From: a virus | Taxonomy: Duplodnaviria; Caudoviricetes | Strand: one strand, 5' to 3' | Length of the DNA: 30,577 nt | Virus record (IMG/VR): IMGVR_UViG_3300016665_000137 | Location: 1 to 30,577 of that record | The notes under the pieces: model-generated | Database searches by the model: none | The model's input: only the letters and a program-made list of their open reading frames with translations | What the model was told of the DNA's origin: nothing | Made by a program: the position numbers and the translations under genes | Shown here: positions 22,317 through 30,121 of the stretch, one piece after another | Numbering within the stretch: position 1 is the first letter of the stretch | How the letters are laid out: the number at the start of each line of letters is the position of its first letter

Positions 22317-22481
22317 TTACTCTTCCTTGACCTCAAATGACAAAACCAACCCTTTTAGTTGGGCAAGGATCAGCATTGCCTGAGCTTCAGATTCTGGAAC
22401 CTCAAGAGTCACCTTCCATCCACCGGTAGAGTCCGTGCTCATTCGGTGAACGGATCCCTCAAACTTGAAGGATTGGCTCAT
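22317..22481 (-). CDS. Small hypothetical protein (54 aa, below track cut-off)
   Basis: MSQSFKFEGSVHRMSTDSTGGWKVTLEVPESEAQAMLILAQLKGLVLSFEVKEE; GGAG RBS and ATGA overlap. Confidence 0.65.
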   Translation of the reverse strand: MSQSFKFEGSVHRMSTDSTGGWKVTLEVPESEAQAMLILAQLKGLVLSFEVKEE

Positions 22482-22756
22482 TCGGTCTCCACCGTGAAGC
22501 TCGAGATTTGAGAATATGGGAAATGGCGCTGAACACCGTTCTTGAAATACAGCACCAGGCCGATGGAATTGGCTACTACATCCTCGATGCCAAGGACATG
22601 GTAATCGGAGTCGAGAGCGGAGTTGAGCCCCTTGGATTTTGAGTCCTGAATGGCTCTCAGGAATTTGCCGTTGGGGTGTATCACCTGGACACCGTTCTCA
22701 CGGGTAAACACAATGTGGGTAATACGGGATTTGGTTGCTTTTGCTTCTTTGGTCAT
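22478..22756 (-). CDS. Hypothetical protein
   Basis: 92 aa, AAGGAG RBS, in operon. Confidence 0.65.
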   Translation of the reverse strand: MTKEAKATKSRITHIVFTRENGVQVIHPNGKFLRAIQDSKSKGLNSALDSDYHVLGIEDVVANSIGLVLYFKNGVQRHFPYSQISSFTVETE

Positions 22757-23251: not shown

Positions 23252-23334
23252 GGGTTTTTAGCTTAATTGGGAGAGCGCCGAACGAGTCATGAACCGTTCA
23301 GGAGGTGTTGGTTCGAATCCAGCATTACCCGCCA
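23252..23334 (+). tRNA. Atypical tRNA / tRNA-like RNA (enlarged anticodon arm; CAT in loop, identity uncertain)
   Basis: U8A9, D arm GCTT-AATTGGGA-GAGC, T arm GTTGG-TTCGAAT-CCAGC, encoded CCA. Acceptor GGGTTTT/ATTACCC has two U-U mismatches; anticodon arm is 25 nt. Confidence 0.7.
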
Positions 23335-23402: not shown

Positions 23403-23711
23403 TTATCGCTCGATGGCTCCGTCGATAATTTCCATAAGATTATCACAATATACATCTTCTATTTTGGCAACGGTATTCCAGCCTGGGTTTTTGGCATTCC
23501 GGCGAAGATTCATTTTGCCAAGCTCTACGGTATAGGTATCGGCGGGAGTCAGGGTAACAATCACATGGCCCTTGAACTTGAGCCCGTTGACCTGGAACAT
23601 CACGCCATTGGTCTGGACTACAAATTTCTTAGCGCCCCAGGCCATGAGAGCGGAGCGATCTGCATACTGGATTTGGGAGATGATGGTTTTGGCGATTTCG
23701 TGGTTAGTCAT
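23403..23711 (-). CDS. Phage hypothetical protein in a self-contained cassette
   Basis: 102 aa, AAGGA RBS, own promoter and terminator. Confidence 0.8.
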   Translation of the reverse strand: MTNHEIAKTIISQIQYADRSALMAWGAKKFVVQTNGVMFQVNGLKFKGHVIVTLTPADTYTVELGKMNLRRNAKNPGWNTVAKIEDVYCDNLMEIIDGAIER

Positions 23712-23714
23712 TGT

Positions 23715-23781
23715 TTAGTCCTTTAGGGCCGCACCGTGCCGCCCATGAACACATAATATTGCTCCAGCGATAAAAGATCAA
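23715..23781 (-). promoter_or_regulatory. Sigma70-like promoter + operator + 5' hairpin + RBS cassette (copy 1)
   Basis: TTGATC-N17-TATTAT; palindrome TATTGCTCCAGCGATA 23757-23772; hairpin GGGCGGCACGGTGCGGCCC; AAGGACTAA. Confidence 0.75.
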
Positions 23782-23814
23782 CAAGAAAATGGCCCCACCG
23801 ATATTTTTTTGCCC

Positions 23815-27280: not shown

Positions 27281-27343
27281 AAAGCCCCCTTCAATGATGA
27301 TACTGCGGTTGATGATTTAGGGGATTTTTGCTACTTTTTAGGT

Positions 27344-27432
27344 AAGCAGAGATCCCACGCTTTCTGCGATCCCGATAGAGTTGACGCTCGAATTCGGGAA
27401 CACGGCCAGGCACACCCTGGCCTTTTCTTTTT
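27344..27432 (+). ncRNA. Candidate antisense RNA over the rep leader (three hairpins)
   Basis: Promoter TTGATG-N17-TACTTT with TGn (27309-27337); stems GCAGAGA/TTTCTGC and TCCCGA..GAG-TTGACG-CTC..TCGGGA; terminator GGCCAGG-CACAC-CCTGGCC-TTTTCTTTTT. Confidence 0.65.
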
Positions 27433-27449: not shown

Positions 27450-27462
27450 TATTTGCAAGCGC

Positions 27463-27504
27463 AAAAAAAATGGCGCCTGGGGAATAACCTAAACCCAAGC
27501 GCCA
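27463..27504 (-). terminator. Intrinsic terminator downstream of rusA
   Basis: TGGCGCTTGGG...CCCAGGCGCCA 11-bp stem followed by TTTTTTTT. Confidence 0.85.
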
Positions 27505-27526
27505 CTAAGGACTAACTACGATGAAC
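27463..27526 (-). ncRNA. Candidate trans-acting sRNA (~64 nt) with an anti-SD/anti-AUG 5' arm
   Basis: TTGATA-N17-TAATCT (27561-27533); 5' arm GTTCATCGTAGTTAGTCCTTAG; terminator hairpin plus T8. Confidence 0.6.
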
Positions 27527-27535
27527 ACCTAAAGA

Positions 27536-27922
27536 TTACAGTTTTTTGACATAAATATCAATAAAACCTTCATTCGGCGCATAAAATTTGCGGCAAGATA
27601 GCATCACAATCTGTGCATCATCCTGCCAAAAAACGCCATTTAGCCCGTCAAAAAGCCCTTTTACGAGGTTGTCCAAATCGGGCTTTACAAAAGGCTCGGA
27701 GCGCCGCACCGAACCGGGCTTCTTGAGGTTGAACATCACCATCACCTCAAGCGGGCCATCCAGGGGCTCCAGGTTGTTTAGCCTGGCATGGTGCCGGGCC
27801 ATGGTCTTAACAGCATTCTCGAAAGCCCTGGTTGCCGCCGGTGTATATACCCGCCCACGAGCCACCCTGGGCCGCCCCTTTGGGATTGGGTTAAGGCTCA
27901 TTCGCATTTTAATCACGCACAT
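27536..27922 (-). CDS. rusA: RusA-family Holliday junction resolvase
   Basis: PIPKGRPR, YTP, KPDLDNLVKGLFDGLNGVFWQDDAQIV catalytic motif. Confidence 0.93.
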   Translation of the reverse strand: MCVIKMRMSLNPIPKGRPRVARGRVYTPAATRAFENAVKTMARHHARLNNLEPLDGPLEVMVMFNLKKPGSVRRSEPFVKPDLDNLVKGLFDGLNGVFWQDDAQIVMLSCRKFYAPNEGFIDIYVKKL

Positions 27923-28076
27923 TCTCCTTCAGCCATTTGATGATTAGGAGCTGTATCATCAAAGAGCGTGACACACCCATTGAGATCCTGAGCTTATCAA
28001 AGCTCTCGAAAAGCTCCTGATCCATGGAGATTGACACAATCTTTGAACTTTTTTCATTTGTTGATTCTTTTTCCAT
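27909..28076 (-). CDS. Ribbon-helix-helix (CopG/Arc-like) regulator, 55 aa, below track cut-off
   Basis: MEKESTNEKSSKIVSISMDQELFESFDKLRISMGVSRSLMIQLLIIKWLKENVRD: alternating beta strand, helix, GVSRS turn, helix. Confidence 0.8.
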   Translation of the reverse strand: MEKESTNEKSSKIVSISMDQELFESFDKLRISMGVSRSLMIQLLIIKWLKENVRD

Positions 28077-28125: not shown

Positions 28126-28193
28126 TATTGCTCCAGCAATATTTTGTGTTAGATTCAATTCATGGGCAGGACGATCCGGCCCGGAAGGACTAA
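28126..28193 (+). promoter_or_regulatory. Rightward early promoter + operator + 5' hairpin + RBS cassette (copy 2)
   Basis: Palindrome TATTGCT-CC-AGCAATA over TTGCTC-N16-TAGATT (TGn); hairpin GGGCAGGACGATCCGGCCC; AAGGACTAA. Confidence 0.75.
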
Positions 28194-28197
28194 GAAA

Positions 28198-28404
28198 ATG
28201 TATACCAACAAAAACAACGAAACTTTCTCTCTGAACCAAATTGTAAAAGGTCGAGTCTGCGGACATTTTGTTATCATCGGATTTGCTACCGATCTCGATC
28301 CAAAAGAAGTTTACGCTTATCTCAAAGCCTATAACCCTGAAACTGGCGCAGTGGCTCGTGGTCAATTGGCGCTCTCTGTTGAAGATATTAAATACGCAAT
28401 TTAA
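28198..28404 (+). CDS. Early hypothetical protein (68 aa; possible in-frame leaderless start at 28162)
   Basis: AAGGA RBS before ATG 28198. Confidence 0.7.
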   Translation: MYTNKNNETFSLNQIVKGRVCGHFVIIGFATDLDPKEVYAYLKAYNPETGAVARGQLALSVEDIKYAI

Positions 28405-28463
28405 TTAAATCAATAATCCCCGCCCTGGGCAATTACCTGGGGCGGGAAAAAAAGGACTAACAA

Positions 28464-28700
28464 ATGATTACCTGCAAACGATGCGATTCCCCAAACATGA
28501 GAAAAGTATACGGCATGAAAGATTCAGCCTTCGGAGAGTTTTGGTATTCAATCCGTGAAGATTATCAAACCCACATTGCCCAGGATTTTAAACTGGCATA
28601 CCCGGCCACTGCCGCAAAAAAACATTCTTTCAGAGATTTAGGTCATGTGGCCAATTCTTGTGAAGAATGCGGATTTTCCGTCAATAAAAAATATCTTTGA
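28464..28700 (+). CDS. Early protein with split CxxC...CxxC
   Basis: CKRC at the N-terminus, CEEC near the C-terminus; AAGGA RBS. Confidence 0.7.
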   Translation: MITCKRCDSPNMRKVYGMKDSAFGEFWYSIREDYQTHIAQDFKLAYPATAAKKHSFRDLGHVANSCEECGFSVNKKYL

Positions 28701-28726
28701 TTTTACCCGCCTTTAAGGAGACACCG

Positions 28727-28936
28727 ATGAAAACTCAAATCAAAATCAAACCGTTCAATGGCCGCTTCGATTTCTTTATTTCTATCAATGACCGTGTGGT
28801 TCATTGCGAAATCTTCAAAACCATCGAGGAAGCGGAATCCAACGCCGAACGCCTGGTGGAGCTTGCCAAGAATCTCAAGACCCAGGCCGAAGCCCTTGAA
28901 ACAAAGCTCAATGCAATGCTTGGGGGTGGCCAATGA
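28727..28936 (+). CDS. Early hypothetical protein
   Basis: TAAGGAG RBS before ATG 28727; C-terminal coiled coil. Confidence 0.7.
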   Translation: MKTQIKIKPFNGRFDFFISINDRVVHCEIFKTIEEAESNAERLVELAKNLKTQAEALETKLNAMLGGGQ

Positions 28937-29142: not shown

Positions 29143-29191
29143 TTTGCATTACTGCGCCAATAATGGCACAACAATAAACAAGGAGAAACAC

Positions 29192-30121
29192 ATGAACACA
29201 ACAAACACTCAAATCACAACCGTAACCGCCGCAAATCCTCAGTTGCCCGTCTACAATCAAGACCGGGTTGAGCTTATCAAGCGCACCGTTGCCCAGGGCG
29301 CTACCAATGACGAATTGGCGCTCTTTATCGAGCAATGCAAGCGCACCGGCCTGGATCCAATTACTCGCCAGATTTATTTTATTAAAGATAAATCCGGCAA
29401 GGTACAAATTCAGACCTCAATCGATGGCTTCCGCTTGGTTGCCGAACGCTCGGGCCAATACGAAGGCCAAACCGCCCCAATGTGGTGTGGCACCGATGGC
29501 GTTTGGAAGGATGTTTGGCTTGCCAAATTCCCTCCTGCCGCCTGTAAGGTTGGCGTGTATAAGAAGGGCTTCCGGGAGGCATTGACCGCCGTTGCGCTGT
29601 TCGACGAATACGCTCAACGCAATTTCAAAGGCGAGCTTAGTTTTATGTGGCAGAAAATGCCCGCCCTCATGATTAGCAAGGTGGCCGAGAGCCTGGCGCT
29701 CCGCAAGGCATTTGCAAACGATCTCTCCGGGCTTTACACCCAAGAAGAAATGGCCCAGGCCAATCAGACCACCGAAACCTACCAGGCCGCCAGCACGGAG
29801 CCGACAACGCTCACCCATGTTGCCACCGTGACCGCTCGGGTTGCTCCCGAACAACCATGGCTCGATGATGGCGCTCCCGCTCCGACCGATGGGCCATATC
29901 GCTTCAAGCAAGGCAAGCACAAGGGCCGCACGATGGAAGAAGTAGGCGAACAGGTTGTCCGTGGTTGGTTTGAATACTGGCAAAAACAGAAGGCTGAAGG
30001 CAAACACCTCTCGGGCTTGCTCCTTCAGGATTTTGAACGGGCCGATGAATACCTGGCCTATTGCGAAGGTGAACACCCTGTTCAGGATGCTACCGACAAC
30101 AACGAAGATGTACCGTTTTAA
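29192..30121 (+). CDS. bet: Bet/RecT-family single-strand annealing recombinase
   Basis: [71 protein letters not shown]...SGLYTQEEM; AAGGAG before ATG 29192. Confidence 0.92.

What the first reader, a model, noticed from the sequence alone, without database searches (positions are those of the whole stretch)
27463..27561. Candidate phage sRNA whose 5' arm is antisense to the translation-start sites of five early genes
Seen: a minus-strand promoter in the end of rusA (TTGATA-N17-TAATCT), an unpaired arm GUUCAUCGUAGUUAGUCCUUAG, then an 11-bp terminator with U8. The complement of this region, CTAAGGACTAACTACGATGAACAC, is a composite of early start regions. AAGGACTAA occurs exactly at three RBSs (23723-23715, 28185-28193, and 28452-28461 as a 10-mer). 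TAAGGA...CGATGAA matches the 28727 gene, and AAGGA...ATGAACAC matches bet. I did not see ACTAA after the SD in late-gene RBSs. Inference: a multi-target RNA silencer with co-evolved RBS 'barcodes' that shuts off the early/recombination programme in lysogeny or at the early-to-late switch, layered on the shared operator. This is the best candidate for an undescribed system here.
Basis: partly seen in the sequence, partly recalled or inferred. Interest (0 to 1): 0.85.

Follow-up and report, generated by a model that had tools for sequence, protein, structure and literature searches.

The report
Phage RNA mirroring early-gene start tags
An uncultured freshwater phage carries a conserved stretch, predicted to make a 64-base RNA, whose open end is the mirror image of a ribosome-landing tag shared by several early genes, so it likely turns those genes down as a group; neither the RNA nor its effect has been observed.

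Summary
AAGGACTAA occurs four times in the 30.6-kb phage: at three early ribosome-binding sites and, inverted, in a 22-nt unpaired arm between a weak sigma-70-like promoter and an 11-bp hairpin with U8. Four of the five proposed targets are the four best-pairing of 42 starts after accessibility correction; 28198 ranks 13th. Shuffles keeping the anti-SD and anti-AUG reach the early bias in 5 of 1000. A syntenic relative with 52-59% protein identity keeps promoter, arm and a different terminator. A second relative uses another tag at five starts and carries that tag's 11-13-nt complement beside a hairpin. The RBS-remnant reading is disfavoured. Cluster K1 mycobacteriophages, whose start-associated sequences are unexplained, hold an inverted copy in a hairpin loop where late transcription begins, but Pixie, TM4 and AnnaSerena lack one. 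No transcript, repression or host is shown, and the promoter's conservation is partly forced by rusA codons. This scan noted the same design before on other DNA (20 findings). Verdict: likely multi-target antisense RNA; new variant of a known kind.

The parts
27556..27561 (-). Predicted -35 hexamer TTGATA, inside rusA (codons Ile-Asp-Ile)
   Evidence: Sequence; TTGACA in L015; coding context
27533..27538 (-). Predicted -10 hexamer TAATCT; its TAA is the rusA stop codon
   Evidence: Sequence; TAACCT in L015 and in runs X2, X9, X12, X19; 3 of 6 consensus, not listed
27505..27526 (-). Unpaired 22-nt arm: GUUCAU (anti-start codon) and UUAGUCCUU (anti-AAGGACUAA); predicted +1 at 27526
   Evidence: Fold; 27506-27526 unchanged in 3 of 3 covering contigs; 16 of 22 identical in L015
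27463..27504 (-). Intrinsic-terminator-like hairpin (11 bp, 12-nt loop) with U8; would also end the RHH-rusA transcript
   Evidence: z -4.9; replaced by a different hairpin plus U-run in L015, z -2.4
27536..27922 (-). rusA, RusA-like Holliday junction resolvase, host gene of the predicted promoter
   Evidence: PF05866 E 7e-26; phrog_140
27909..28076 (-). Ribbon-helix-helix protein, candidate binder of the shared operator (inferred)
   Evidence: PF01402 E 6.5e-7
28127..28142 (.). Palindromic operator-like site over the rightward early promoter; second copy at 23758 (2 mismatches); none at the RNA's promoter with up to 4 mismatches
28185..28200 (+). Tagged RBS and start of gene 28198; weak predicted target (rank 13 of 42 after accessibility)
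28452..28468 (+). Tagged RBS and start of gene 28464; best predicted target (10 contiguous pairs plus start-codon helix, -17.2 kcal/mol)
28714..28731 (+). RBS and start of gene 28727; predicted target (-16.6); in two related contigs this gene is preceded by the full tag or its C-to-T variant
29180..29199 (+). RBS and start of the RecT/Bet-like recombinase; predicted target (-16.2)
23706..23723 (-). Tagged RBS and start of gene 23711, in a detached cassette with operator, promoter and leader hairpin; predicted target (-15.7)
27404..27432 (+). Convergent plus-strand terminator that would stop plus-strand transcription before the arm; ends a second candidate RNA
   Evidence: kept in L015

Best explanation
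The segment is likely the gene for a 64-nt trans-acting antisense RNA (predicted 27526 to 27463, minus strand) whose unpaired 5' arm is predicted to pair across the Shine-Dalgarno region and start codon of several early mRNAs and would block their translation as a group. Shown by sequence and computation: the arm is complementary to a tag found at three early starts, it ranks four early starts first, and promoter, arm and terminator are kept in relatives. Inferred: host RNA polymerase starts at a promoter overlapping the rusA stop (or the RNA is the 3' end of the RHH-rusA message); the RNA carries no operator, so it would build up with time and act as a delayed brake on the operator-controlled early and recombination genes; pairing of 14-18 bases in two helices would work without Hfq. 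Timing is most likely the early-to-later switch, by analogy with cluster K1 mycobacteriophages; that step is inference.
For: Early starts pair better than others: mean -13.97 against -9.79 kcal/mol, 8 against 34 starts, Mann-Whitney p 0.002; 0 of 1000 full shuffles and 5 of 1000 shuffles keeping CAU and UCCUU reach that difference. With accessibility the top four of 42 are 28464, 29192, 23711, 28727. Chance of the 9-mer complement in a 22-nt arm is 6e-5. L015 keeps TTGACA-17-TAACCT, the 6-nt gap, GTTCAT at the predicted +1, a pyrimidine arm and a different hairpin with G-U pairs and U-run on the same strand. Near relatives vary at 8 of 74 positions in 27527-27600 but 1 of 64 in the RNA, Fisher p 0.037. 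Gene 28727 is preceded by the full tag in run X2 and by a wobble-compatible variant in run X9, one contig each. L204 has AAAGGAACC at five starts and an 11-13-nt exact complement after the bet stop; 1 of 1000 shuffles keeping UCCUUU matches it; each arm prefers its own phage's starts. The tag before ATG is rare in five Bdellovibrionota genomes: 3 hits against 10 for the reversed control, while AAGGAGAAA gives 47 against 7.
Against: No transcript or repression data. The -10 is 3 of 6; both hexamers sit on RusA codons and the stop codon, so their conservation is partly forced. Start 28198 ranks 13th, and the early-versus-other test weakens to p 0.029 with accessibility. Without accessibility a tail-region start (1618) ranks second. 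Sixteen other places in the genome score better than the best target in a tile scan; the targets lie in the top 0.6-1.2% of 10,182 tiles. Only one distant homologue of the locus was found and its targets are off the contig. The L204 element has no clear promoter or U-run, lies elsewhere, and folds better on the other strand (-44.3 against -39.4). Hfq was not found in 101 genomes of the likely host phylum. The tagged phages Pixie, TM4 and AnnaSerena have no inverted copy in the stretches read.
Confidence: 0.62

Rival explanations
1. The segment is only the terminator of the RHH-rusA operon; the arm is a spacer whose likeness to start sites is chance or a weak generic anti-SD.
For: The hairpin follows the rusA stop directly; promoter hexamers are explained by coding; anti-SD plus hairpin units with a generic SD also occur in unrelated loci L102 and L105.
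Against: 9-mer match chance 6e-5 per arm; early bias survives shuffles keeping the anti-SD and anti-AUG (5 of 1000); the arm is better kept than the terminator in L015.
Confidence: 0.13
2. The segment is the RBS remnant of a deleted plus-strand early cassette (hairpin, tag, ATG AAC ACC TAA), the hairpin now serving as rusA terminator. It could also be the origin of a working antisense RNA.
For: Real early cassettes also read hairpin, tag, ATG; early genes are shuffled among relatives.
Against: No operator or plus-strand promoter upstream, and a plus-strand terminator at 27404-27432. The third codon varies in X9 and X19. In L015 the opposite-strand frame is 56 codons and the SD reads AAAGAA, a loss for an RBS but a wobble-tolerated change for an antisense arm. 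A dead remnant would not keep GTTCAT at 52-59% protein identity.
Confidence: 0.1
3. The tag is the binding site of a phage or host RNA-binding protein, and the extra copy is a sense-strand decoy or DNA site, not an antisense arm.
For: Pope et al. leave RNA or protein binder open (PMC3203893); three tagged actinophages have no inverted copy; the L204 copy folds better on the tag-sense strand; AAGGA resembles the CsrA site (recalled).
Against: Here U8, G-U pairs and promoter all point to the antisense strand, in the window and in L015. The arm also mirrors ATGAA, which two targets without the tag share.
Confidence: 0.09
4. The unit is a leader attenuator for the downstream replication operon: the arm is a boxA-like or antisense-controlled site that sets read-through of the hairpin into rep.
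For: It points toward rep, 183 nt further on; a convergent structured RNA is conserved in the rep leader; L015's TTTGTTCTTTG resembles boxA (recalled consensus).
Against: The arm stays unpaired and offers no antiterminator in the folds; the window's arm departs from boxA; it does not explain the match to early starts.
Confidence: 0.06

Closest known systems
C4 antisense RNA of phages P1 and P7 (PMC5320573, passages)
   Same: Phage-encoded trans-acting RNA that pairs at ribosome-binding sites of phage mRNA; specificity changes by a few paired changes in RNA and target.
   Different: C4 is about 77 nt with three stem-loops, cut by RNase P, and uses two loops on one operon. This RNA is predicted to have a linear 5' arm, its own terminator and targets in separate genes; no Rfam match.
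Start-associated sequences (SAS/ESAS) of cluster K mycobacteriophages and cluster EF Microbacterium phages (PMC3203893 section 15 part 1 of 2; PMC7302621 passages; PMC11373665 passages and section 19)
   Same: Extended SD tag before non-structural genes, conserved beyond 16S pairing, some with an operator-bearing promoter upstream, and one inverted copy in K1 phages.
   Different: Different sequence and host group, 9 against 13 bp, 3 against 10-18 copies. The papers assign no function and, in the parts read, do not propose the inverted copy as an RNA. In K1 it lies in a hairpin loop of a longer leader.
Hfq-dependent phage sRNAs PreS/LPR1 (lambda) and VpdS (10.1101/2024.10.31.621285, passages)
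   Same: Small phage RNA with an unpaired seed complementary to a motif shared by many targets.
   Different: PreS acts mainly on host mRNAs through Hfq; here predicted targets are the phage's own early genes and Hfq was not found in 101 genomes of the likely host phylum.
Lambda OOP RNA (passage) and P22 Sar (recalled)
   Same: Short antisense RNA from its own promoter beside replication genes.
   Different: Those are cis-encoded and fully complementary to one target; this arm overlaps no target.

Membership tests
C4 antisense RNA | Match to the Rfam C4 models / three stem-loop fold | tested here: not met
   No Rfam match in the region at E up to 5; single hairpin
C4 antisense RNA | RNase P processing from a longer precursor | not testable with these tools
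   No RNA data
C4 antisense RNA | Pairing that covers the RBS of phage mRNA in trans | tested here: inconclusive
   Predicted for four starts; not measured
SAS-type start tags | Repeated motif at the RBS position, limited to non-structural genes | tested here: met
   3 of 6 early and 0 of 8 other AAGGA starts; 5 starts in L204
SAS-type start tags | Conservation beyond the bases that pair with 16S rRNA and rarity in the host | tested here: met
   CTAA follows the SD core; 3 hits against 10 control in five genomes of the likely host phylum; the host is inferred
SAS-type start tags | The 13-bp consensus of cluster K and 11-19 copies | tested here: not met
   Different 9-mer, three copies; an analogue, not a member
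Hfq-dependent trans-acting sRNA | Unstructured seed plus intrinsic terminator with U-tail | tested here: met
   L015
Hfq-dependent trans-acting sRNA | Hfq in the host and bound to the RNA | tested here: inconclusive
   0 of 101 genomes of the likely host phylum, controls positive in 5 of 14; host not established; binding not testable
Cis-encoded antisense RNA (OOP, Sar) | Transcribed opposite its target with full complementarity | tested here: not met
   Targets lie 0.7-3.8 kb away with partial pairing

The most novel reading that the evidence does not exclude
Unrelated phages have repeatedly evolved an RNA-only master switch: early genes carry a private extended Shine-Dalgarno tag, and one phage RNA that mirrors the tag silences the set, tag and mirror changing together. 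The unexplained SAS of cluster K1 mycobacteriophages are such address labels, read by the hairpin loop at the start of their late transcript.
Probability: 0.4. Interest if true: 0.85.

Novelty: new variant of a known kind. Interest (0 to 1): 0.66.

Why it matters
If true, phages can switch off a scattered, freely shuffled set of early genes with one small RNA that reads a tag in their start sites, apparently without host Hfq. It would also give a direct test of a question open since 2011 and still called ill-defined in 2024 (PMC3203893, PMC11373665): what the start-associated sequences of cluster K phages do. Adephagia on Mycobacterium smegmatis is a laboratory system in which the parallel element can be mutated. 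A short tag-and-mirror pair is also a compact tool for controlling several genes at once.

Tried and rejected
Exact arm pattern in viral contigs: 0 hits. Promoter-plus-GTTCAT pattern: 32 stretches, none with neighbouring rusA, arm and terminator, treated as chance. Early-leader pattern: 31 stretches, only L204's contig relevant. RusA searches gave 3, 80 and 80 loci, rep searches, Bet 30; only L015 was syntenic for the unit. A generic arm-plus-terminator scan of 19 chosen loci found the window, L015 and six weaker hits not pursued. A repeated-tag scan of 175 sequences of 6 kb or more found repeated 9-mers in 38; inverted copies next to a hairpin of -20 kcal/mol or better in the window, L204, L102, L105, L112 (a normal gene start) and L139 (not examined). 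Portal protein against named phages: no match. Sequencing runs: no RNA holder listed; X19 is marked probably DNA, depth 2, and is not used as expression evidence. The plus-strand TTGACA at 27546 is lost in X9 and X19, so it was dropped as a promoter. The loop of the second RNA shows no preference for early starts. A phage-encoded Hfq-like helper was looked for: the Atlas gave no family for proteins 22756 or 28198, and a single-sequence fold of 22756 had not finished, so this stays open. Rfam: nothing for the region, L015 or three cluster K loci. Earlier notes by place and by sequence: none.

Full report
Setting. The window is a whole 30,577-nt virus record with capsid, portal and terminase genes on the minus strand, a replication block (rep, a 181-aa partner), rusA and a ribbon-helix-helix gene, and a divergent rightward block of small genes with a RecT/Bet recombinase (24 and 20 of the ORFs were scanned). 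It is held in freshwater, aquaculture and soil runs (four laid, four). The host is only inferred: the one GTDB hit for the rep N-terminal family is a Pseudobdellovibrionaceae MAG, and 5 of 401 genomes of that phylum hold a rep relative. No integrase was among the proteins scanned; a 33,905-nt contig carries the same rep, so part of the genome may be missing.

Observation. The predicted RNA runs 27526 to 27463 on the minus strand: 22 unpaired bases, an 11-bp stem with a 12-nt loop, U8; z -4.9. The consensus scan lists neither element, because the -10 is 3 of 6 and the loop exceeds its limit. No Rfam family matches. AAGGACTAA has four hits where 0.25 are expected; the chance of its complement in a 22-nt arm is 6e-5. 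The sharing of the tag among starts is less surprising on its own: some 4-mer follows AAGGA three times in 4% of column shuffles, and two of the three cassettes share operator and leader hairpin.

Target ranking. I curated 42 starts from the ORF lists and called eight early by position: the seven rightward genes and gene 23711, which has the second operator copy. Mean duplex energy is -13.97 against -9.79 kcal/mol (p 0.002); 0 of 1000 full shuffles and 5 of 1000 shuffles that keep CAU and UCCUU reach the difference; 19 of 1000 of the latter reach the early mean. With accessibility the top four are 28464, 29192, 23711 and 28727; 28198 is 13th; p is 0.029. Against this, start 1618 ranks second before correction, and 16 other places in the genome outscore the best target in a scan of 10,182 tiles. 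The leaders of the tagged genes fold into a hairpin that leaves the tag open or weakly paired.

Near relatives. In three of three contigs covering it (runs X9, X12, X19), 27506-27526 is unchanged, while 27505, 27527, 27528, 27535 and 27548 vary; 1 of 64 positions in the RNA against 8 of 74 upstream, p 0.037. For X2, six of seven differences are listed, none in the RNA; the seventh is not shown. Gene 28727 lacks ACTAA in the window, but in X2 it follows other DNA that ends in the full tag, and in X9, where gene 28464 is skipped, it follows the C-to-T variant, which would pair by G-U (one contig each, X9 at depth 2.9, so either could be an assembly artefact).

A syntenic distant relative. L015 (RusA 59%, rep 52%, partners 53-54%) keeps TTGACA, 17 nt, TAACCT, 6 nt, then GTTCAT, a pyrimidine arm and a hairpin of different sequence with G-U pairs and a U-run on the same strand. 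Conservation begins at the predicted +1. The hexamers sit on Ile-Asp-Ile/Met codons and the stop codon, so they are not independent evidence. Read as a plus-strand RBS, L015 has lost the SD core and opens a 56-codon frame instead of three codons; read as an antisense arm, the C-to-U change still pairs. This and the convergent terminator at 27404-27432 disfavour the remnant reading. L015's early genes are off its 2.4-kb contig, so its targets are unknown; its arm scores -17.2 and -17.1 on two L204 starts and -8.9 to -13.7 on the window's five.

A relative with another tag. L204 (Bet 56%) has very similar leader hairpins but AAAGGAACC at five starts, and one inverted copy just after the bet stop, complementary over 11-13 nt to each. 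Its arm scores -18.9 to -23.6 on its own five starts and -10.0 to -15.1 on the window's; the window's arm scores -12.2 to -17.2 at home and -7.3 to -16.0 on L204. One of 1000 shuffles keeping UCCUUU matches it; its rep start also scores -18.8. The copy lies in a hairpin loop, lacks a clear promoter and U-run, and the other strand folds better, so it is a parallel, not a proven homologue.

The SAS parallel. Pope et al. describe a 13-bp tag before non-structural genes of cluster K mycobacteriophages, note one inverted copy in four K1 phages, and leave an RNA or protein reader open (PMC3203893; passages; section 15 part 1 of 2). In the right parts of Anaya and Adephagia I find 16 sense copies and one inverted copy each; on the transcribed strand it is the loop of a long hairpin. 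The region is shared by 169 phage records. Of 12 aligned (nine picked from 40 listed hits to span identity, plus Anaya, Adephagia, Pixie), five carry the anti-SAS loop, three a degenerate pyrimidine loop, four none. Among the five the loop is invariant and 2 of 15 pairs show two-sided change. Adephagia RNA-seq places the start of late transcription in this gene 92-93 gap, and the paper still calls the SAS role ill-defined; it also finds SAS-bearing gp39 Hfq-like by fold (PMC11373665; passages; section 19). Against generality: TM4 (26-52.8 kb) has 10 tags and no inverted copy, Pixie (28-61.1 kb) 18 and none, AnnaSerena (whole) 10 and none (PMC7302621 passages). Figures and supplements of these papers were not seen and may bear on whether the leader RNA was noticed.

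Mechanism. Most likely (0.62) a small RNA is made from the rusA end, pairs in two helices over tag and start codon, and blocks ribosome loading on early and recombination messages. It has no operator, so it would act as a second, slower layer after the protein repressor. Hfq was not found in 101 genomes of the likely host phylum; a phage-encoded helper was not identified. The tag is rare before ATG in five such genomes, which fits a phage-private label. Transcription, repression and timing are all inferred. Rivals: plain terminator 0.13, RBS remnant 0.10, protein-binding tag with decoy 0.09, rep attenuator 0.06.

Comparison and novelty. It works like P1/P7 C4 and like seed-based sRNAs such as PreS (PMC5320573 passages; 10.1101/2024.10.31.621285 passages) but fails membership of C4 and of cis-antisense RNAs. 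Seven literature searches (listings only, apart from the five papers named) showed no description of a phage RNA aimed at a tag shared by its own early genes; subscription journals are mostly outside that library. The scan's own notes list 20 findings with these words in other genomes, eight shown, unchecked; I had reached the SAS comparison before that look-up. CsrA, boxA and Sar are recalled, not from calls. Verdict: new variant of a known kind, interest 0.66.

Noticed in passing
window 27346-27432 (+): Second candidate RNA facing the first: three hairpins ending in a terminator, z -4.3, possible promoter TTGATG-18-TACTTT near 27310-27340, kept in L015. It lies opposite the rep leader, like a plasmid counter-transcribed RNA.
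   Followed up: partly
window 23252-23334 (+): tRNA-like gene with a four-base anticodon call (catg), on the strand opposite its neighbours.
   Followed up: no
window 23403-23790 (-): A detached early-type cassette (operator, promoter, leader hairpin, tag, 102-aa gene, hairpin with T-run) sits among packaging-side genes.
   Followed up: partly
L277 30560-30810 (Adephagia gene 92-93 gap) and L276, L279-L288: Conserved SigA-like promoter and multi-hairpin leader across cluster K phages, no Rfam match in three tested; its second loop is anti-SAS in K1 and changes in other groups.
   Followed up: partly
L102 590-650 (+) and L105 7700-7765 (+): Generic anti-SD TTCTCCTTT followed by a hairpin and T-run, with no start codon on the other strand, just before an early operon whose starts use AAAGGAGAA.
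   Followed up: partly
window 22478-22756 (-): 92-aa protein whose C-terminus looks by eye like an Sm2 motif; no Pfam, PHROG or Atlas family; fold not obtained.
   Followed up: partly
window 28198-28404 (+): 68-aa early protein whose Atlas model resembles small beta-barrel proteins (DUF3104, PWWP, YodC rows), all under the naming bar.
   Followed up: partly
window 27453-27458 (-): TTGCAA just after the terminator is kept in L015 without a recognisable -10; how rep is transcribed is unresolved.
   Followed up: no
L204 6880-7000 and 8735-8745: Repeated GTTTTGACA/TGTCAAAAC sites at early promoters, a likely operator different from the window's.
   Followed up: no
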